DNA from: Fervidobacterium sp.
GTDB lineage: Bacteria > Thermotogota > Thermotogae > Thermotogales > Fervidobacteriaceae
Length of the DNA stretch: 55,732 bases
Assembly: GCA_026419195.1 (NCBI GenBank)
Contig: JANZZV010000012.1
Location: 1 to 55,732 of the forward strand
Direction: 5' to 3'
The notes under the pieces are model-generated. The model searched no databases and was not told the origin of the DNA. It was given only the letters and a program-made list of their open reading frames with translations. The first letter of the stretch is position 1, and the number at the start of each line of letters is the position of its first letter. This document shows, in pieces, positions 18,112 through 26,684 of the stretch. A program made the translations under genes and the position numbers.

Positions 18112-18150
18112 ATTTAAAAATAAAAGGGGCTCATCGTATCGATGAGCCCC
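18112..18150 (-). terminator. Intrinsic terminator of the his leader (attenuator terminator)
   Basis: Minus strand: GGGGCTCATCG-ata-CGATGAGCCCC (18150-18126) followed by TTTTATTTTT (18125-18112); it ends 5 nt before the hisZ SD. Confidence 0.7.
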
Positions 18151-18175
18151 TTGTGTTTACTCCACCATTAAACCA

Positions 18176-18277
18176 TCAAAAAAGCCCAGGTGGAGTAACA
18201 CCCGGGGCATTTTGATGGTGATGCAGATTTATTATTGAATTATTTTGTAAATCAATTTGTGCACAAAGGCAATCCAT
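18176..18277 (-). CDS. his operon leader peptide (33 aa, MDCLCAQIDLQNNSIINLHHHQNAPGVTPPGLF)
   Basis: ATG 18277 preceded by AGAGGTG (18289-18283); three consecutive His codons CAT-CAC-CAT at 18223-18215; TGA at 18178-18176. It lies between the promoter and the terminator hairpin. Confidence 0.55.
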   Translation of the reverse strand: MDCLCAQIDLQNNSIINLHHHQNAPGVTPPGLF

Positions 18278-18348: not shown

Positions 18349-18615
18349 TTAAATAATGAACTTTCGGACCGAAGTATTTAGTTTTTCGGCTATCATTGCT
18401 AAATTTTGAGCTGATGTATTGACATGTTTAGCGTTTGTACTCTGCTCTTTAAAATCTTTACTTATTTTTTCGATTGAATTAGCTATGACCATAATTGAAT
18501 TGGTTGCGTTAGCCATGGCAGAACTCATTTGTTCGGTTGCTGCACTCTGTTCTTGGGCACTTGAGGCTAAACTTTCTATCATTGAACTAATGCTTTCAAC
18601 TTCTTTAAGTATTTT
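18349..18615 (-). pseudogene. Detached 3' end (C-terminal ~90 aa) of a methyl-accepting chemotaxis protein gene
   Basis: The frame is open from 18705. ...ILKEVESISSMIESLASSAQEQSAATEQMSS...LNTSVRKFII matches the conserved MCP C-terminal coiled coil that is missing from the truncated MCP at 24488-26245. There is no SD or start of its own. Confidence 0.7.
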
Positions 18616-18627
18616 GTAAAGTATTCT

Positions 18628-19074
18628 TTGACAACAATATCTTCTAATAATCCACTTGTTATTGATTTTGTTCTGCGAATTACGGAGTCGGTTGTTAAAA
18701 AAAGATTAAAGAAGAATCTGTGTTCGGCAGGTGTGGAAGATTTTGCTGTTGATGTAGAAGGAAACATATACCCTTGTTTTGTCTTTATAGGACGGTCAGA
18801 AGATTTAATTATGGGAAATGTAAATGATAATATTGAAGAAAAAACTCAGAATTTTAGGCAAAAGATACTTGAATTTAAAGAAATTACATATGAGAGAATT
18901 AATTCTTGTGCAAATTGTATAGCAAAAGGAATTTGTTCCCAATGCATAGCAGCAAGTTATTTAAAGTTTAAGAATTTCGATTGTGTTGATAATAATTTAT
19001 GTTCTATCAATAAGAAAATAATTGAAAGGATAGGGTTGTTCCTAGTGGACAACTATCTGGTGAATAAAATTTAG
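18628..19074 (+). pseudogene. Detached C-terminal SPASM-domain portion of a radical-SAM/SPASM peptide-maturase gene
   Basis: Cys pattern CSAG...YPC...CANCIAKGICSQC...CVDNNLC is typical of SPASM auxiliary clusters. There is no SD; the tracker 'start' is a TTG. It is the missing continuation of the rSAM fragment at 23633-24538. Confidence 0.65.
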
Positions 19075-19130
19075 AACTTATAAGGAAAAAAGTTTTTTAT
19101 CTTTTCTTGGTGTCAGGGGAGGGCTAATAA

Positions 19131-20321
19131 TTGGTTTCTGACAATTTTAAACCCATTGCTTATCCAGATATTGAGAAGTATGAGTTGTTTAAAAAGAAAG
19201 GCAATATAATGTATTGTATTGGAACCATTGAAAATGACTCGTTTATAATTGTTCCAAATGAGCAGGTGAGTCTTATCTTAAGACTTTTGAAGTTAATGAA
19301 TGGAAAATTAAGTGTCAGTGATATTCAAAAATTTGCTAAAGAGAATAATATGTCAATAGATATAAAAAGTTTAATAACTAAACTTGGAAGGGCAGGTTTA
19401 ATAAAAAATTTCAATGAACATTACAAATTCAGTGAACTACAACTTTTTTCGTTTAGTATGCTTTCGATAGACATTTCTTTGTTTTGTAATTATATTAAAA
19501 AAAGAGGCATGTTTCTAACTATTATTTTAATTTTAATGTTAATTGTTACAATTCTATACGTTACAATATTTTTACCATCGAGAATAAGTTTTAATTTCAA
19601 TAATATTATTAAATATGACAATTCCTACTTGAAAAATATAATTTTAAGTTTAATATTTACAATACCATGCTTTTTAGTACATGAACTTGGGCATATTATT
19701 TTTGCCACGAGATATGGTCTGACTTCTAATAAATTAAATATAGGGTTATATTATTTCGTAATCCCTATAGTTTATGTAAAGATTCAAGGTTTATATGCTC
19801 TTCCTCCTTTCAAAAGAGTGAGAGTATTAATAGCTGGAATTGTGTTTAACTTTATTTTTGGCTTGAGTTGTCTATTTATGTGGTATATTTTTGAGATAGA
19901 AATATTTAAAACTTTGTTTTTTGTAAATATTCAAATAGCATTCCTAAATTTAACACCTTTCACATTTAGCGATGGATACTTTATATTTTCTATAGTCATT
20001 GGAGAACCAAATTTGCGATATCAGTACTACAAATTTTTGGCTGGAATAGTTAATAAAAAATTTCGTTACAAACTAACATTTAAGCAATTGATATATATTA
20101 TTTGTAGTATTGTGATAACTATACTTTACATTATTGTTCAAGTTAAAGTACTTGACAATGTTTTATATGAAACTTTACAGAAATATGGATTTGGATTTAG
20201 CCAAGAAAGGAGATTTTTTATTTACACTGCAATGAATATACTTATTGTTTCTGCTTTATATCTATTCATTTACAAAAGAAGCATTAAGTATTTAAATGCA
20301 ACTTTGGCTAAAGATTTTTAG
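19131..20321 (+). CDS. Polytopic membrane metalloprotease of the site-2-protease (M50)-like type, with a ~100-aa N-terminal soluble domain
   Basis: TTG start with GGGGAGGG SD at 7 nt. HELGH within a TM helix plus a downstream NLTPFTFSDGYF segment (S2P LDG-like motif); many hydrophobic helices. Confidence 0.55.
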   Translation: MVSDNFKPIAYPDIEKYELFKKKGNIMYCIGTIENDSFIIVPNEQVSLILRLLKLMNGKLSVSDIQKFAKENNMSIDIKSLITKLGRAGLIKNFNEHYKFSELQLFSFSMLSIDISLFCNYIKKRGMFLTIILILMLIVTILYVTIFLPSRISFNFNNIIKYDNSYLKNIILSLIFTIPCFLVHELGHIIFATRYGLTSNKLNIGLYYFVIPIVYVKIQGLYALPPFKRVRVLIAGIVFNFIFGLSCLFMWYIFEIEIFKTLFFVNIQIAFLNLTPFTFSDGYFIFSIVIGEPNLRYQYYKFLAGIVNKKFRYKLTFKQLIYIICSIVITILYIIVQVKVLDNVLYETLQKYGFGFSQERRFFIYTAMNILIVSALYLFIYKRSIKYLNATLAKDF

Positions 20322-20361
20322 ATGATTGAATAAAAAGTATTTCTAACTTTTAAACTTGTAA

Positions 20362-20436
20362 ATGTCCGATTTATGTATCAACTGTAACTTTAAATGTGGG
20401 AATTTAAGTACATCGTGCAGCATACAACAATTCTAG
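20362..20436 (+). other. 24-codon Cys-rich small ORF (MSDLCINCNFKCGNLSTSCSIQQF), speculative RiPP precursor
   Basis: Four Cys in 24 aa, 40 nt downstream of the protease gene. No SD, so it is weak. Confidence 0.12.
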
Positions 20437-20596
20437 AAATAAATGAAATATATAAATCGGTGGTATAAAAGCAAAGAAATTAGATTGATTTCATTAATAG
20501 TATACTTTCACAGAAAAGTAATTTAATATATTAGAATAAATCCTGTTTTTAAACAACAAATAATTTTCTAAAAGTTATCTGTGTTTTTTTATTTTT

Positions 20597-20697
20597 CTTG
20601 ACTTTATCAGTTCAGAGGTATTTATAGACTAACAAAAAATAACAATCTCTGGACTTTGTCAGTTAGGAGGGGTTTTTGAGCTAACAAAAAATTACGG
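20597..20697. repeat. Two tandem ~50-bp degenerate copies of the IS left-terminal sequence
   Basis: Unit 1 is 20597-20646 and unit 2 is 20647-20697; each contains GACTTT(a/g)TCAGTT..GAGG...CTAACAAAAAAT. A third copy is the IS left inverted repeat itself. Unit 1 carries a promoter-like TTGACT-17-TTTATA. Confidence 0.45.
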
Positions 20698-22176
20698 CTC
20701 TTTGTCAAGAGATGGGGTGGGTATTCTGAATGCCCACCTTTTCAGTTTTATCAACCAAACATTTAATGTAATATATACCTCTTACAGGTAAATAATTTTA
20801 AAAACCCAATATTGTCTTTCCCCGCTACTTTTGCGGGTTTTAAATATTCTCTTTCTAACTCCTAACTACCACAACTGTATAAAATCCTCTTTCTAAATCT
20901 CTCAAAATTTCTATATCCAAATGCATTTCTCTTTAAAACTTTTATCTTGTTGTTAAAACCTTCTGTTGCACTATTTGTATACGGAACATCAAAAGAATTT
21001 ACTATCTCTGAAAACCAGTTCCTAAAAACCTTTATACATCTGCAAAATTCAGAAAGGCCACTTCTCTCTGCTGCCTCTATCCACTTTTTTAATTCAACTC
21101 TCGCTTCTGCTGAATTACTGCTTTCCAAAACTTTTCTAAATTCTTCCTTGAGTCTATGCGCTTTCCTTAAATCCTCACTATACCAAAACATCACTTCTAA
21201 CTCTTCTCTCTGCTCTGCTGTAAGTTCTTCATAAGACTTTAACAACAATTTCCTGCTCCTCTTGAAATATTTTCTCAAATTATCTTCTAATTCTTTCTGC
21301 ACTCTTTTCCTTACTCCTTCTGTCGCCCAATAAACATACCTTGTAAAATGAAATTTGTCTATCACTATCTTCGCATTTTTAAAATATATCTTTGCTATCT
21401 CCACAAATTGTCTCCACATATCACATATGAAATACTTTACTTTATCCCTTCCTTTTAACCCTTTAAAATATTCAATCAAAACATCTTGTCTTCTGTCTTT
21501 TAAAATTTCTACTATCTGCTTTTTCACAGGGTCCACAATTATACACTGATATTTAGCTCCACCTGCATTTCCTTTGAATTCATCTATGCATATCGCCTCA
21601 GAAGAAAAATCCTCTATTTTCTTGGTAGGACTTACCTTATCAAATAACCTCATAACTGTTGTAACTGATACATTTGTCTGTCTTGCTACCTCTTTCATAC
21701 TGCTCAAACTACTAAGCTGACTTATAATGTATGCTGCTAGTCTATTTGTCATTCTTTGACGCTTGCCCAAAAAATTTATGTGTTCAAAAAACTTCTTTCC
21801 ACATTTTTTGCAAACATATCTTCGCTTTCTTAAAACTAAATATGTTTCCTTACCCATTATTGGTACGTCCTTTACTCTTTGGACACGATAATCATGTATC
21901 TTGCTTGTGATACTACCACATTTAGGACACTCGTGAGGTTTTTGCATCTGACTTATGTGGAGTTCTACTTCCTTTTCGTTTTCTACTACTTGGTGGAGAA
22001 TGATATCTTTTGATTTCAAAAGTTCAGTGATATAATTATGATTGAGCACTTATTCTGGATGCCTCCTTTCTTTTGTGTGTTTTTTTATCCCTAAAAACAA
22101 TTTTAATTATAGCAGGCATTCAGAATAAGTGCTATATTTTTTCTTTTCTTACCACCCCAATATTTATTATAGAGCC
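20696..22176 (-). mobile_element. ISL3-family insertion sequence (1481 bp)
   Basis: IRL GGCTCTttgtcaagagaTGGGGTGGgTATTCTGAATGCC (20696-20734). IRR (reverse complement from 22176) GGCTCTataataaatatTGGGGTGG...TATTCTGAATGCC. GCAT(C/T)CAGAATAAGTGCT is repeated at the right end. No target-site duplication is visible (aaaattac vs gattttgc). Confidence 0.65.
20862..22049 (-). CDS. ISL3-family transposase
   Basis: 395 aa; N-terminal zinc-ribbon (CPKCGS...CKKCGKKF) and DDE transposase core typical of the IS204/IS1001/IS1165 group. GTG start with AAGGAGG upstream. Confidence 0.8.
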
Positions 22177-22366
22177 GATTTTGCTTGCTGATGAACCGAC
22201 AGGAAATTTAGATGAAGCTAATGAAGAGCAGATATTATCTATCTTTGAGAATATCAATAAAGAACTTCAAACCACAATAGTTGTGGTTACACATAATGAA
22301 AAGGTGGCAAAGAGAGCACAGAAAGTAATTACTATATCAAACAAAAAAATAGTTCAGGTGAGATAA
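22177..22366 (+). pseudogene. 3' fragment of an ABC-transporter ATPase (Walker B onward) truncated by the IS
   Basis: [12 protein letters not shown]...VVTHN begins exactly at the IS right end. The tracker ORF 22073-22366 starts inside the IS; the N-terminal two-thirds of the ATPase are absent. Confidence 0.7.
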
Positions 22367-22384
22367 GGAGGAAAGCAACAATCT

Positions 22385-23611
22385 ATGAGTTCAATAGTTG
22401 AGTACATAAAGTTTTCTCTGTCGAGCATAAAGAACAACAAAATAAGATTTGTACTGAGCATGTTTAACATAACCTTGGGAGTATTTTTGGTCACGGTTAT
22501 AATTATTATGGCAGGAAGTTTCAAGGATAAAATGTATACAGAAATGAAGGTTTCTGATGAAAAAGTCATAAGCATAGTGCAAGGCAGGCCTGAAAGCCGA
22601 GCAAGTTATTATTATAGTTATCCTATTTTTGATGATTCTCATATAGACATGATAAAAAAAATCTCAAGTTTGAAAAATGTTGTCGGGGTAAAAGTGTGGT
22701 CGCCTGATAGCATTACGGCTGTAAATAGTAAAGGTCAGAGAAAAAGCGTCTTTACTCGTATTATAGGAACGAAAAAACTCTTTTTAGACAATTTAGGTGC
22801 AATTATAGAGCATGGACGAATTTTTAAAAAAGGCAACGAAGTGGTTATAGGTGCAAAGATAGCAGAAATAGGGAGTATTCAAGTTGGCGATAAGATTGAA
22901 ATTGAAGACAGCAACAGAAAGTATATATTTACAGTATGTGGTATTCTCAAACTGCAAAAGCCACAGATGTTTTCAGATACCCCTGATTTGATCAATTTTA
23001 TGATAGCAGCACCTGTTGATATAGATGCATTTAGCAATAAAAAGTATGGGATGATAAGTGCAAAAGTCAATAGTATCAATTTTCTAGAAAGTACATGTAA
23101 AGAAATAGAAAGAATACTGAATAGCGACAATTTAATAAAGAGTGAGTTAAAAGGATGGGGTTTGAGTGTTATTGCAGTGTCAAGAATGGACGTTCTCAAA
23201 GCAATTAATAACTGGTTTAGGTATATATATTTCTTTATACTAGTTGTAATTATAATGGTATCTTTAATTTCTGTAGCTAACATTACAAACACAATGATTA
23301 CAACAGTATATGAAAGGTATCAAGAAATAGGAATTATGAAAGTTGTCGGTGCATCAAATTTACAAATAGCTGCATTTTATATTTTTGAATGTGCCATTAT
23401 TGGAATTTTAGGAACATTTATAGGGTTAATTCCAGGAATCTTGCTGTCAAGATTACTAGTTTATATAATTAAGTGGAATTATATTACTGACAATACGCTG
23501 CTATTTATAACCTGTACTGTGATGGGACTAATTTCCCCACTGTTAGCAGGCTATTTAGCTTCGCGAAAAGCAGTGAAATTGCAGCTAATAAATGCTTTGT
23601 ACAAAGAATAA
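22385..23611 (+). CDS. ABC-transporter permease, MacB/FtsX family
   Basis: 408 aa; N-terminal TM helix, large periplasmic domain and C-terminal FtsX-like 3-TM bundle. AAGGAGGAAAG SD. Confidence 0.8.
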   Translation: MSSIVEYIKFSLSSIKNNKIRFVLSMFNITLGVFLVTVIIIMAGSFKDKMYTEMKVSDEKVISIVQGRPESRASYYYSYPIFDDSHIDMIKKISSLKNVVGVKVWSPDSITAVNSKGQRKSVFTRIIGTKKLFLDNLGAIIEHGRIFKKGNEVVIGAKIAEIGSIQVGDKIEIEDSNRKYIFTVCGILKLQKPQMFSDTPDLINFMIAAPVDIDAFSNKKYGMISAKVNSINFLESTCKEIERILNSDNLIKSELKGWGLSVIAVSRMDVLKAINNWFRYIYFFILVVIIMVSLISVANITNTMITTVYERYQEIGIMKVVGASNLQIAAFYIFECAIIGILGTFIGLIPGILLSRLLVYIIKWNYITDNTLLFITCTVMGLISPLLAGYLASRKAVKLQLINALYKE

Positions 23612-23632
23612 GCACAGGGAGGACAGAAGTTT

Positions 23633-24538
23633 ATGAGTGTTCATATTTATAACCTAGACGATAAGTATATTTTGTTTAATCATGAACAGTTAAAATACTT
23701 TTTGCTTCCACCAAAGCTTGGAGAGCAGTTGTTAAAGCTTGACGAGAATGAGAAAGAGAGATTGATAAGCAGTTTAAAAGAAAATTTTTACTTCAATGGG
23801 AGTAATGAAATTACTCAGGAAGAAAAAGAAGATGATGTTTGTTCTAGGTTAATATTAGTGATATCGCAAGCATGTAATCTTAGTTGTTCTTATTGTTACG
23901 CTCACGGAGGTTCATACGGCAAACAGAGTGGAAACTTTTTTATGGATTTTGAAACAGCAAAAAATTCAGTTGTTTTCTTTACAAAAACTTTTGCCAAGGG
24001 TATAAAGTCAATTCAGTTTTTTGGTGGAGAGCCACTACTTAATTTAGATTTAATTGAAAGATTGTGTTATTGGGTCAACGAATACTATTCATCTATTGGA
24101 TTAAATACACCAAAATTTTCTATTTCGACAAATGGAACATTAATAAATGAAAAAGCAATAGAACTTTTTAACAGTTATAATATAGGGGTAACAGTAAGTC
24201 TTGATGGAGATAAAGGTATCAATGATGAGCATAGAAAATACAAAAATGTTAAAAGAAGTGTTCATGAAGACGTTGTAAAAATAATTAACCTTATGAACAA
24301 GATAAGAAATTTTAAATTAGGCATAGAAATGACAGTTACAAATAAGCATATAGAAAACTTTAAAGATAATCCAGATTTTGCATTGGGGTTGGTAAAACAT
24401 TTTCACAATTTAAAAATTGATTTTATACATTTTGCTCCGATAATTGGTGAATGGAATTCTAATTTAACGATTGTAGATGAAAAATCATTAGCAAATTTTT
24501 TTGATGATATTGATAAGACTGTTTTTAGCTTCTTCTGA
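23633..24538 (+). pseudogene. N-terminal ~300 aa of a radical-SAM/SPASM peptide maturase (radical SAM core only)
   Basis: CNLSCSYC (CxxxCxxC) with a ~70-aa N-terminal extension (possible RiPP-recognition element). AGGGAGGA SD. The ORF runs out in sequence antisense to the MCP gene; the SPASM continuation is at 18628-19074. Confidence 0.65.
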
Positions 24539-26245
24539 TTGTCTTGCTGCTTGTTCTATGACTTCTACGCTTTCGTTTGTAGCTATACTTGCTTTTTCAG
24601 AACCTTGTTGTATCTCCCTAAGTATTTCTCCTATCTTGTTAGTTGAATTCTTACTTTCTTCGGCTAACTTTCTTATCTCATCGGCAACAACTGCAAAACC
24701 ACGACCTGCTTCACCAGCTCTTGCGGCTTCAATGGCTGCGTTGAGTGCAAGTAGGTTCGTTTGTTCAGCTATAGAATTTATGGTATCAACTATTTCTTGA
24801 ATGTTTCTTGCTTTGTTACTTAATTCACTAACTACCTGGGCAGTTATTATCGATTTTTCTTTCGTTTTCAATATTGTTTGCGAAATAGCGTTTATCTTGT
24901 CTTCCCCATCCTTAGCAGCCATGTTTACCTGCGTTGATTTTTTGGAGAGCTCTTGTGCCGATTTAGCGACATGTTGGGCACTTGCGGTAATTTCCTCTAT
25001 ACCGCTGTTAACTTCTTCGACAGAAGCAGATGAGTTTTGCAGCGATGAGTTTATCTCTTCTATTTCTCTTGATAAATCAGCGATGGTTTTGTCTAAACTT
25101 TGGGAGATCTTTTGCAAGTCTTTTGATGAAGAATTTACTAAGTTTGAGTCTTGAAGAATTTCGGAAAGTATTATTTTTAAGTTAACTTTCATATTCTCCA
25201 GAGAATTTGCCATTTTCGCTATCTCATCTTTACCTTTAACTGAAAATTCAACATTCAGATTTCCTGTGCCAAATAATTCTATCTTTTCTGCAAGAACTTT
25301 CACAGGTTTTACTATCAAGCTGCTGACAAAGAGGATAAGGATAGCGATGGAAACTATTACAATACCGAAGATTGTTACTATCAACACTATAGAAGTTCGA
25401 ACGCGGGCTAAGTAGATATCTTCTGGTACAGAAATCAGCACTGACCAGTCACTTTCACCTTTTAAAGGCGAGTAAAAAACGTAAGCGTTTTTTCCATCTG
25501 GTGTTTTAACTATGCTTTTTCCTTGTTTTTTTTGCTTAATATCCTGCCATATCTTTTCAAAACCTTTGCCTCTTACATTGCTGATGTTTAAGTTCATTAC
25601 ATAATCTTTATTCTTATGGTATATAACCTTTCCAACACGATCGATTACAATGATTTCCCCAATTTCCAATTTCAGCTGATCGACTAATTTGTTCAGATAT
25701 TCAAGGTCAAGACCTAGACCGAACAATCCTACGATTTTGTTTTCCATATTCTTGACAGCACACGTCACAACGAAAATGTTTTTTCCCGTACTTTTAGATA
25801 CGAGTCCTTCGCTTACGAATACTTCCTTACCTTCTATCATAATTGCTTTGAAATAATCTCTGTCGGAAACATTCGATACAGCACCTGTAGTGTTTGGGGC
25901 TTTACCATCTGGATAAGCTAACAAATACATAAGAAGTTCTTCTCTTTTCTCAGCCCGTGGCTTCAATTCTAAATTGACAATTTCTTGATATTCCCCGGAT
26001 TCCAAAGCCTGAATAATCGATTTTTCTTCGGCAAAAGCTTTTGCTTCCTTTATTTCACTGGTAATCCATTTTTCAAGTATTGCAGCTGAAGAAGTTGCTA
26101 CTTGAGAGAGTGTCTGTTCTTGCCATGAATTTGTCGATATTTGGAGTCTAATGTAAACCAGTATGGCAAAGACAATAAGTAATATAACAATTGGCAAAAG
26201 GATGGTAACTAAAAGCTTTTGCCTAAGACTTTTGAAACCTTCCAT
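24488..26245 (-). CDS. Methyl-accepting chemotaxis protein lacking its last ~90 aa
   Basis: Likely start ATG 26245 (AAGGGGG SD, 8 nt); the tracker start is 26287. Has TM1, a Cache-like sensor, TM2, HAMP and the signalling domain ([34 protein letters not shown]). It ends ~45 aa after this motif where ~140 aa are expected. Confidence 0.8.
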
Positions 26246-26373
26246 TTTAACTACCCCCTTTACACAGGATTTAAATAAAAATAACAAGACTTTTTTGAAA
26301 TAATTATATCATAAATCAAATGGAAACAAAATTTTTATAAAATGTCTTTCTAAGAAGATTTATAAAATGCACA

Positions 26374-26580: not shown

Positions 26581-26609
26581 ACAAAACCACCAGGAGAAAG
26601 GTAAAAAAA

Positions 26610-26650
26610 CCGTGGGTGCACGATACTAAGAGTGCACCCACGGTTTTTTT
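26610..26650 (+). terminator. Intrinsic terminator of the aro leader (attenuator)
   Basis: CCGTGGGTGCAC-gatactaaga-GTGCACCCACGG + TTTTTTT, 35 nt before the aroF start. Confidence 0.75.
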
Positions 26651-26684
26651 ATAAACTTGACATAATTTTGTGGAGGTGTGGTGT

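What the first reader, a model, noticed from the sequence alone, without database searches (positions are those of the whole stretch)
18628..24538. RiPP-like cassette on the accessory segment: radical-SAM/SPASM maturase + S2P(M50)-like membrane protease + MacB/FtsX ABC exporter; precursor not identified
The gene set (rSAM with an N-terminal ~70-aa extension and SPASM domain, an HExxH...DG intramembrane metalloprotease with an N-terminal soluble domain, a MacB-type permease and ATPase) is the standard make-up of sactipeptide/ranthipeptide-type loci. All four are in one orientation and tightly spaced with strong SDs. No annotated precursor is present. It may have been lost with the 5' two-thirds of the ABC ATPase when the ISL3 element inserted, or it may be a very small ORF. 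Function and product are unknown. The locus looks partly inactivated (IS and split rSAM), so it may be a decaying cargo.
Basis: partly seen in the sequence, partly recalled or inferred. Interest (0 to 1): 0.6.

Follow-up and report, generated by a model that had tools for sequence, protein, structure and literature searches.

The report
Permuted, truncated foreign RiPP cassette
The region is a dead, circularly permuted 5.9-kb piece of a Caldicellulosiruptor peptide-antibiotic (RiPP) gene cluster plus an ISL3 insertion sequence. It sits exactly inside a chemoreceptor gene of a Fervidobacterium metagenome genome, and its missing 44-residue precursor gene can be read from intact copies elsewhere.

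Summary
Window 18613-24508 (5,896 bp) is one insertion into a methyl-accepting chemotaxis (MCP) gene beside the his operon. The insert is circularly permuted. The SPASM half of the radical-SAM gene lies at its left end and the catalytic half at its right end. Joining 24508 to 18613 gives a 445-aa enzyme identical to intact copies, and removing the insert restores a gap-free MCP. The insert is about 99.9-100% identical to Caldicellulosiruptor morganii-type DNA. There the cluster reads BtrH_N/DUF4872 – 44-aa precursor (MIEKNFLEELKEVLETQDLDLSEIETLEEIVTPASGCGCGGLCR) – ABC ATPase – FtsX – rSAM/SPASM – M50 protease – ISL3. The window lacks BtrH, the precursor and ATPase residues 1-166, so it cannot make a product. 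The precursor belongs to a rare, unnamed family with an …EELEE(V/I)(I/V)(A/T)P leader and a short Gly/Cys core. That family travels with a CteB-like rSAM and an M50 partner. Best reading: an IS-bounded circle from a thermophilic Firmicute was cut or crossed once, inside the rSAM gene, and joined into a Thermotogota chromosome with no real homology. The main caveat is that this is a single MAG contig.

The parts
18349..18612 (-). 3' fragment of the interrupted methyl-accepting chemotaxis protein gene (last 87 codons plus stop)
   Evidence: Joined to 24509-26245 it gives a 666-aa MCP. This aligns without a gap across the junction (…NSLINI|LKEVES…) with intact 669-aa relatives P0122 and P0123. 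The DNA also aligns with L099.
18611..18612 (.). Left junction. The 'AT' dinucleotide is the only sequence shared by donor and target at the exchange point; its twin is at 24507-24508.
   Evidence: attL, attR, attP and predicted attB are compared. In register, 16 of 28 positions match and the longest exact run is 3 nt.
18613..19074 (+). 3' part of the rSAM/SPASM maturase gene (residues 293-445), holding all seven SPASM cysteines
   Evidence: SPASM PF13186 and TIGR04085. 23633-24508 + 18613-19074 translates to a protein identical to the intact 445-aa L001 protein.
19131..20321 (+). Intact M50-type HExxH intramembrane metalloprotease (396 aa) with a soluble N-terminal domain of about 100 aa
   Evidence: PF02163. 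Weak matches to the daptide HExxH and YydH/LiaK RiPP proteases. HExxH, DGYF and NLR are invariant in 10 homologues. The protein is identical in L001 and L002.
20322..20696 (.). Non-coding tail of the cassette. It holds two IR-like direct repeats (20596-20643 and 20648-20695) that abut the IS.
   Evidence: repeat family D1. The same sequence precedes the IS in L001, L003 and L089.
20697..22176 (-). Complete ISL3-family insertion sequence (1,480 bp; transposase 20862-22049). It is the Caldicellulosiruptor-type variant and has no target duplication.
   Evidence: NF033550 scores 349.6 bits against a cut-off of 180. The ends are fixed by five 100%-identical copies with different flanks. By my decoding of Table 3 of PMC5398504, the left-end sequence equals the C. 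kronotskiensis copy. Flanks are AAAATTAC and GATTTTGC.
22177..22366 (+). 3' stub of the MacB-type ABC ATPase gene (residues 167-228, from the Walker B motif onward)
   Evidence: Matches L001 from position 2386 on. The intact gene encodes 228 aa.
22385..23611 (+). Intact FtsX/MacB-type permease (408 aa)
   Evidence: PF02687 and PF12704. One amino-acid difference (M/I, nt 23002) from L001.
23633..24508 (+). 5' part of the rSAM/SPASM maturase gene (residues 1-292): N-terminal extension plus the CxxxCxxC core
   Evidence: PF04055 and PF13353. Zero mismatches to C. morganii over the part that genome retains. The ORF then reads on into antisense MCP sequence as far as 24538.
24509..26245 (-). 5' fragment of the interrupted MCP gene (dCache_1, HAMP and most of MCPsignal). 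Annotated as MCX7654720.1, Fervidobacterium sp. MAG.

Best explanation
Window 18613-24508 is a 5,896-bp insertion of Caldicellulosiruptor DNA in the chromosome of a Fervidobacterium-type Thermotogota MAG. It lies inside an MCP gene next to the his operon.

The donor locus is a RiPP cluster: BtrH_N/DUF4872 papain-like protein, 44-aa precursor, MacB-type ABC ATPase and FtsX permease, CteB-like rSAM/SPASM maturase, M50 intramembrane protease, then an ISL3 element.

Inferred pathway of the intact cluster:
- The maturase binds the acidic …EELEE(I/V)(V/I)(T/A)P leader.
- It installs thioether cross-link(s) from the core cysteines (ASGCGCGGLCR).
- The leader is removed by the membrane M50 protease and/or the papain-like protein.
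- The ABC pump exports the peptide.

Inferred origin of the insert:
- A circle made of the IS plus the 4,416 bp from ATPase codon 166 to the IS formed first. This could happen by recombination between two direct IS copies or by intramolecular transposition.
- The circle was opened once, within the rSAM gene, and joined to a single break in the MCP gene. No base was lost or gained, and only an 'AT' was shared.

Shown result:
- The rSAM gene is permuted and split.
- The MCP gene is split.
- There is no precursor, no BtrH-like gene and no ATPase N-terminus.
- The copy in the window therefore cannot make a product. Only the FtsX and M50 ORFs remain intact.
For: - Reconstruction: 23633-24508 + 18613-19074 gives a 445-aa protein identical to the intact rSAM of L001. 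The 4,416-bp circle minus the IS differs from L001/L003 by 2 SNPs and one 2-bp poly-A indel, with none at the junction.
- Target: the rejoined MCP aligns gap-free with P0122/P0123 (72% and 71% identity) across the junction. Three related contigs have an intact MCP directly next to hisZGDCBHAFIE.
- Donor: the identical precursor and cassette lie in the C. morganii chromosome between core genes. There are 0 mismatches over 2,246 nt. The IS follows the cassette at the same base in L001, L003 and L089.
- IS type: it is the Caldicellulosiruptor variant of an ISL3 already reported as shared between Caldicellulosiruptor and F. nodosum (PMC5398504).
- Composition: insert GC is 0.30 against 0.356 in the flanks.
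- RiPP identity: CteB 5WGG E=3e-64. The CxxxCxxC motif and seven SPASM cysteines are invariant.
- Precursor family: about 30 clusters share the leader motif and a Gly/Cys core. They lie next to rSAM–M50 pairs in L006, L008-L010 and L012-L014.
Against: - The window is one contig of a metagenome-assembled genome (MCX7654714-720). No second assembly carries the junctions, the empty site or the IS–ATPase junction.
- The insert carries essentially no private mutations, which is also what a chimera would show.
- This contig crosses an IS that breaks every other assembly.
- The circle itself, the direction of transfer at the moment of the event, and all the chemistry (cross-link type, cleavage site, role of the BtrH-like protein) are inferred.
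- No NCBIfam equivalog threshold is reached.
Confidence: 0.75

Rival explanations
1. Assembly chimera. Caldicellulosiruptor and Fervidobacterium co-occur in the sample, and the assembler wrongly threaded a cyclic path (cassette plus IS) into the Fervidobacterium MCP gene.
For: It is a single MAG contig. The insert is about 100% identical to Caldicellulosiruptor DNA. The contig traverses a multi-copy IS at which other assemblies stop. No independent copy of either junction was found.
Against: Graph misassemblies need a shared k-mer. Here donor and target share only 'AT', with a longest run of 3 nt. Two independent artefactual joins would have to fall at the same base in both genes so that both reconstruct perfectly. 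The window also has a private SNP at 20693, next to the IS, that no other contig has.
Confidence: 0.12
2. Same transfer, different order of events. A larger circle or fragment carrying the whole cluster, including BtrH and the precursor, integrated first. The ISL3 then made an adjacent deletion in the Fervidobacterium chromosome from its right end to ATPase codon 166.
For: The IS has no target duplication, as expected after an IS-adjacent deletion. The IS–ATPase junction was not found in JGI metagenomes that contain the donor type.
Against: It needs an extra, unobserved closure between DNA downstream of the IS and DNA upstream of BtrH. A circle bounded by the IS explains the same structure with fewer steps. 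The lack of a duplication is equally expected from IS–IS recombination.
Confidence: 0.2
3. The locus is still a working RiPP system that uses an unrecognised tiny precursor in the window, for example the ORF at 20362-20436 (MSDLCINCNFKCGNLSTSCSIQQF).
For: The ORF is Cys-rich and lies just after the protease gene.
Against: The rSAM is in two separated pieces, and the ATPase lacks Walker A. The ORF has no Shine-Dalgarno sequence, no leader and no match to the family profile. In intact cassettes the precursor is the 44-aa gene upstream of the ATPase.
Confidence: 0.02
4. The rSAM/SPASM enzyme is not a peptide maturase, for example an anaerobic sulfatase-maturase type.
For: Sulfatase-maturase models match weakly (98 bits against a cut-off of 349).
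Against: There is no sulfatase neighbour in any locus. Peptide-maturase models and CteB score far higher. A conserved precursor family is adjacent in 9 or more loci.
Confidence: 0.02

Closest known systems
CteB / SCIFF (thermocellin) and PapB (freyrasin) ranthipeptide systems
   Same: The maturase is an rSAM with an N-terminal leader-binding extension and a seven-Cys SPASM domain. CteB is the best solved relative (E=3e-64) and PapB is the best NCBIfam model. The precursor is small, with an acidic leader and a Cys-containing core.
   Different: Scores are below both equivalog cut-offs (192 against 340; 157 against 425). The core is 7-17 residues of mostly Gly and Cys, with no CX3D/E repeats and no six-Cys-in-45 pattern. 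The cluster always pairs the rSAM with an M50 protease. The cross-link chemistry is unknown.
YydFGHIJ epipeptide system (Bacillus subtilis) and daptide clusters
   Same: The parts list matches: short precursor, rSAM enzyme, HExxH intramembrane protease and ABC transporter. The M50 protein hits the YydH/LiaK and daptide HExxH models.
   Different: Those hits are far below cut-off (36 against 225; 59-118 against 300). The rSAM is a SPASM thioether-type relative, not shown to be an epimerase. A BtrH_N/DUF4872 protein is present in addition.
ISL3 element shared by Fervidobacterium nodosum and Caldicellulosiruptor (Cuecas et al. 2017, PMC5398504)
   Same: Same IS type with the same terminal sequences. 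That paper already inferred Caldicellulosiruptor–Fervidobacterium transfer from transposase similarity.
   Different: Here the IS arrives with 4.4 kb of cargo at about 100% identity. The insertion junctions lie in the cargo, not at the IS ends.
IS-generated circles (IS26-type translocatable units; circles from recombination between direct IS copies)
   Same: The inferred intermediate is one IS copy plus the adjacent DNA, in a closed circle.
   Different: Such units normally re-enter through the IS, by transposase or by homology. This one was joined through a point in the rSAM gene with 2 bp of identity and no target duplication, i.e. illegitimate end-joining or crossover.

Membership tests
Radical SAM/SPASM peptide maturase (sacti/ranthipeptide type) | CxxxCxxC radical-SAM cluster motif | tested here: met
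   C81, C85 and C88 are invariant in 11 homologues. PF04055 matches. The motif lies in the 23633-24508 piece.
Radical SAM/SPASM peptide maturase (sacti/ranthipeptide type) | SPASM domain with seven cysteines for two auxiliary clusters | tested here: met
   C329, C347, C391, C394, C400, C403 and C422 are invariant. PF13186 and TIGR04085 match. All seven lie in the 18613-19074 piece.
Radical SAM/SPASM peptide maturase (sacti/ranthipeptide type) | Intact, contiguous gene in this window | tested here: not met
   The two halves are 4.5 kb apart and in permuted order.
Radical SAM/SPASM peptide maturase (sacti/ranthipeptide type) | Adjacent Cys-containing precursor peptide gene | tested here: not met
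   Absent from the whole window. Present in intact copies (L001, L003, L087, L089) and in homologous loci.
Radical SAM/SPASM peptide maturase (sacti/ranthipeptide type) | Thioether (S–Cα/β/γ) cross-link in the product | not testable with these tools
   Needs mass spectrometry or NMR of the modified peptide.
PapB family / SCIFF maturase (NCBIfam equivalogs NF047865, TIGR03974) | Score at or above the curated cut-off | tested here: not met
   192.1 against 340 and 156.6 against 425 for the intact protein. Values are similar for L008-L010 homologues.
Peptidase M50 / RiPP HExxH intramembrane protease | HExxH in a transmembrane helix plus a downstream conserved Asp motif | tested here: met
   H184, E185, H188 and D281-G-Y-F are invariant. 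PF02163 scores 45.6 bits against a cut-off of 27.2.
Daptide HExxH / YydH-LiaK protease equivalogs | Score at or above the curated cut-off | tested here: not met
   59.4 against 300 and 36.5 against 225.
MacB-type ABC exporter | Complete ATPase (Walker A through H-loop) together with an FtsX permease | tested here: not met
   The permease is intact. The ATPase keeps only residues 167-228.
ISL3 insertion sequence | ISL3 DDE transposase, terminal inverted repeats and an 8-bp target duplication | tested here: inconclusive
   Transposase scores 349.6 bits against a cut-off of 180. Imperfect GGCTCT… inverted repeats and the 1,480-bp ends are confirmed. There is no duplication at this copy, as expected if it took part in recombination or deletion.
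Thiopeptide ('thiazolylpeptide-type bacteriocin', the UniRef auto-name of the precursor) | YcaO cyclodehydratase, Lan-type dehydratase and pyridine synthase in the cluster | tested here: not met
   None appears among the called genes and Pfam hits of L003, L087 or L088. No NCBIfam precursor model matches.

The most novel reading that the evidence does not exclude
Two linked readings survive.
1. The parent cluster defines an undescribed RiPP class. It would make very small Gly/Cys-rich peptides (…EELEEVIAP | xxGCGCGG(L/V/I)C…) using a CteB-like rSAM, always paired with an M50 protease that carries its own possible leader-recognition domain, and often with a BtrH-like papain-fold enzyme.
2. The window captures, at single-base resolution, a very recent Firmicutes-to-Thermotogota transfer. 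A non-replicating, IS-generated DNA circle would have been inserted by homology-independent joining rather than by transposition or site-specific recombination.
Probability: 0.45. Interest if true: 0.6.

Novelty: new member of a known kind. Interest (0 to 1): 0.45.

Why it matters
For natural-product mining, the window copy is a dead end. It did, however, lead to the intact cluster and to a rare, unnamed precursor family with a clear leader motif, found in thermophiles and gut anaerobes. That family is a defined target for heterologous expression.

For genome evolution, the case gives a base-exact picture of how cargo DNA can cross phyla in hot environments. Published work had only inferred Caldicellulosiruptor–Fervidobacterium exchange from transposase similarity. 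Here 4.4 kb of cargo travels with that IS, and the junctions show entry by illegitimate joining that destroyed a chemoreceptor gene.

For annotation, the two 'radical SAM' and 'SPASM' proteins and the two MCP fragments in this MAG are halves of single genes.

Tried and rejected
- My first junction guess, an 'AAG' microhomology giving …DDIDKYSL…, was wrong. The intact L001 protein reads …DDFVKYSL…, and the frame check moved the crossover to 'AT'.
- HisD, the 301-aa rSAM fragment and P0121 are not indexed for contig look-up. The source record was therefore identified only through cluster names.
- The genome-contig scan did not return the source MAG or any near-identical cassette. The best hit was 36% identical.
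- Exact searches of JGI metagenomes for the IS–ATPase junction and for the predicted empty site found nothing.
- The IS has no match in PLSDB plasmids.
- The single-sequence AlphaFold model of the M50 protein was too poor (pLDDT 43.6) for a fold search.
- The PDB profile search with the M50 N-terminal domain gave only insignificant winged-helix-type hits, and Pfam gave nothing. The 'RRE-like' idea therefore stays a lead.
- Literature searches for BtrH/RiPP, DarH, DUF4872, Caldicellulosiruptor+SPASM, and rSAM + intramembrane metalloprotease gave nothing useful.
- ISL3 pseudo-end transposition and IS200/IS605-type insertion were considered for the junctions. Both were rejected because both junctions lie at one point of the cargo, there is no target duplication, and there are no IS ends at the borders.


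Full report
**What is at the coordinates**

ORF listing and HMM scans give this order on the window:
- MCP C-terminal fragment, 18349-18582 (-).
- SPASM-domain fragment, 18628-19074 (+).
- M50/HExxH membrane protease, 19131-20321 (+).
- About 375 bp of non-coding DNA.
- ISL3 transposase, 20862-22049 (-).
- ABC-ATPase C-terminal stub ending at 22366 (+).
- FtsX/MacB permease, 22385-23611 (+).
- Radical-SAM N-terminal fragment, 23633-24538 (+).
- MCP N-terminal fragment, 24488-26287 (-).

The rSAM halves, however, are in the wrong order. Each abuts one half of a chemoreceptor gene on the opposite strand.

**The segment is an exact circular permutation inserted in the MCP gene**

An exact-protein look-up of the M50 protein returned contigs with the same cassette intact (L001; later L003, L004, L005, L089, L090).
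- BLAST shows L001 2386-4724 = window 22177-24516 and L001 4716-6826 = window 18611-20723, at about 99.9% identity.
- Translating window 23633-24508 + 18613-19074 gives a 445-aa protein identical to the intact L001 rSAM.
- The 4,416-bp reconstructed circle without the IS differs from L001/L003 only by one SNP (23002), a 2-bp poly-A indel (20686-7) and one SNP (20693). Nothing differs at the junction.
- Joining 18349-18612 to 24509-26245 gives a 666-aa MCP. It aligns without a gap across the join (…[10 protein letters not shown]|LKEVESISS…) with intact 669-aa relatives at 72% and 71% identity. The DNA is colinear with L099.
- In three related contigs the intact MCP sits directly beside hisZ-hisG-hisD-hisC…, the same neighbourhood as in the window.

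Donor and target share only the dinucleotide 'AT' at the exchange point (18611-12 and 24507-08). In register, 16 of 28 flanking positions match and the longest exact run is 3 nt. No base was gained or lost in either gene. That is the signature of one circular molecule opened once and joined to one break in the chromosome, or equivalently of a single reciprocal crossover.

**Origin of the insert**

The window is the whole 55,732-bp contig of an NCBI MAG labelled Fervidobacterium sp. Proteins MCX7654714, -719 and -720 are the SPASM, rSAM and MCP fragments. Its flanks are ordinary Thermotogota core genes (his operon, glycogen phosphorylase, aro genes).

The cassette belongs to Caldicellulosiruptor.
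- The identical 44-aa precursor is WP_268760838 of C. morganii.
- In two isolate chromosomes the cluster lies after pgk-tpi, gpmI, eno, uxaC and a DUF6364/PIN pair.
- The window matches C. morganii with 0 mismatches and 1 gap over 2,246 nt.
- GC is 0.30 in the insert against 0.356 in the flanks.

**The insertion sequence**

The IS is exactly 20697-22176. Five other contigs carry a 100% identical 1,480-bp copy with different flanks. Three Caldicellulosiruptor-type contigs stop 27-52 bp inside its left end at the same position after the cassette.

By my decoding of Table 3 in Cuecas et al. 2017 (PMC5398504), the window's left terminal sequence equals the C. kronotskiensis copy rather than the F. 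nodosum one. That paper reports this ISL3 type as shared between Caldicellulosiruptor and F. nodosum. The window copy has no 8-bp target duplication (flanks AAAATTAC and GATTTTGC).

**How the structure most likely arose (inferred)**

In the donor, the IS lies just downstream of the protease gene. A circle containing one IS plus the DNA from ATPase codon 166 to the IS can form in two ways. Two direct IS copies (a second one in the ATPase gene) could recombine, or intramolecular transposition could join the IS's right end to the ATPase gene. Either route explains the missing target duplication.

That 5,896-bp circle was then linearised or crossed within the rSAM gene and joined into the MCP gene. 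A variant has a larger circle integrating first, followed by an IS-adjacent deletion in situ. I cannot separate the two. The IS–ATPase junction was not found in JGI metagenomes.

**Is it an assembly artefact?**

Against a real event: it is a single MAG contig, the insert has almost no private changes, the contig crosses a repeat that breaks other assemblies, and no independent copy of the junctions or of the empty site exists in the collections.

Against an artefact: there is no shared k-mer at the joins. Two artefactual joins would have to fall at the same base of both genes. I put the artefact at about 0.12. Read mapping would settle it.

**What the cassette is**

The intact cluster is:
- BtrH_N/DUF4872 protein (346 aa; C39/papain-like; weak match to 'DarH' acyltransferase).
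- 44-aa peptide MIEKNFLEELKEVLETQDLDLSEIETLEEIVTPASGCGCGGLCR.
- ABC ATPase (228 aa).
- FtsX (408 aa).
- rSAM/SPASM (445 aa).
- M50 (396 aa).

A 47%-identical version (L006) keeps the order and has the precursor MKDEMLKELKATLVDQELNYAQLEELEEMVTPVSGCGCASGGLC.

Evidence on the maturase:
- A profile of the rSAM subfamily hits CteB (5WGG), the SCIFF/thermocellin maturase, at E=3e-64 over residues 33-423.
- CxxxCxxC and seven SPASM cysteines are invariant.
- No NCBIfam equivalog cut-off is reached.

Evidence on the wider family:
- In the GTDB scan, rSAM–M50 pairs recur in L006-L015, L022, L027, L035 and L040, often with ABC genes and, in L006-L009, a BtrH-like gene.
- Small ORFs matching the precursor lie just upstream, some in tandem copies.
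- A profile search found 33 peptides sharing …(I/V)EELEE(V/I/M)(I/V)(A/T)P followed by cores such as TCGCGCGGVCW, GYGFGCACS and AFGIICGGGCWGIGCAF.
- Invariant positions are L-E, P, G+3 and two Cys.

Working model, inferred from CteB/PapB, YydH and MacB precedents:
- The rSAM recognises the leader.
- It forms Cys thioether link(s) in a very small core.
- The M50 protease and/or the papain-like protein removes the leader near the conserved (A/T)P.
- The MacB-type pump exports the product.

The M50 N-terminal domain is conserved (G31, D36, D57-G58). A low-confidence model gives it a β-β-β-β-α-α-α order, which is compatible with a winged-helix leader-binding domain. Neither Pfam nor PDB searches support this significantly.

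**State of the copy in the window**

The copy has no precursor (profile search of all six frames, best E=1.4). It has no BtrH-like gene, and its ATPase lacks residues 1-166. The rSAM is in two separated pieces. Only FtsX and M50 are whole.

The Cys-rich 24-codon ORF at 20362-20436 has no leader motif and no ribosome-binding site. It is present unchanged in the intact copies, where the real precursor is elsewhere, so I reject it. The insertion also truncates the host MCP within its signalling domain.

**Comparison and verdict**

The cassette works like a sacti/ranthipeptide cluster and has the parts list of the YydFGHIJ and daptide systems. It is not a member of any curated equivalog.

The transfer route extends a published inference of Caldicellulosiruptor–Fervidobacterium exchange of this ISL3. 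It adds cargo and base-exact junctions that lie outside the IS.

I class it as a new member of known kinds. The remnant itself is of low interest. The precursor family and the permuted cross-phylum insertion it reveals are of moderate interest.

Noticed in passing
window 20596-20695: Two 48-nt direct repeats (77% alike) lie immediately outside the IS left end. They resemble the IS terminal repeat (…CTTTGTCA…GGAGGGG…). They are also present in the Caldicellulosiruptor-type contigs. They may be solo IS ends or a preferred ISL3 target.
   Followed up: partly
window 20362-20436: A 24-codon Cys-rich ORF (MSDLCINCNFKCGNLSTSCSIQQF) lies inside a 37-nt imperfect inverted repeat (20342-20378 / 20448-20484) downstream of the protease gene. 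It has no SD and no leader motif, and is probably not a gene.
   Followed up: yes
L087 and L088, 12218-14728 (C. morganii isolates): In both sequenced isolates the rSAM gene is cut at residue 265 by a different transposase (DDE_Tnp_1_6) and the M50 gene is missing. The cluster is therefore also broken in the cultured strains and is complete only in metagenome contigs.
   Followed up: partly
P0267 and P0272: These peptides have two or three tandem …EELEEVIAPG… leader-like repeats and cores without cysteine (e.g. ISRNHNDTA). They may be a multi-core or differently modified branch of the precursor family.
   Followed up: no
UniRef100_A0ABY7BRA3: UniRef auto-names the 44-aa precursor 'Thiazolylpeptide-type bacteriocin', although no thiopeptide enzymes are in the cluster. 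The name probably reflects leader similarity only.
   Followed up: partly
L003 443-1723 compared with L087 5117-6511: One metagenome version of the donor locus has a TnpB/IS605-OrfB gene where the isolates have uxaC. A 108-aa Peptidase_C39 fragment lies upstream of the BtrH-like gene. The donor locus is itself a rearrangement hotspot.
   Followed up: no
L006 1900-2864: In the 47%-identical cassette, IS110-type transposase remnants sit between the precursor gene and the ABC genes. Mobile elements repeatedly hit this cluster type.
   Followed up: no
window 26602-26651; 18118-18158; 18172-18219: A perfect 20-nt inverted repeat with flanking A/T runs lies between the MCP gene and the DAHP-synthase-like gene. 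Two GC-rich hairpins lie between hisZ and the MCP 3' end. These are likely terminators of the host genes.
   Followed up: no
window 19131-19445 (M50 residues 1-105): The soluble N-terminal domain of the M50 protease is conserved across 10 homologues and has a β-sheet-then-three-helix order in a low-confidence model. This suggests a leader-recognition (RRE-like) winged helix fused to the protease, but that is not demonstrated.
   Followed up: partly
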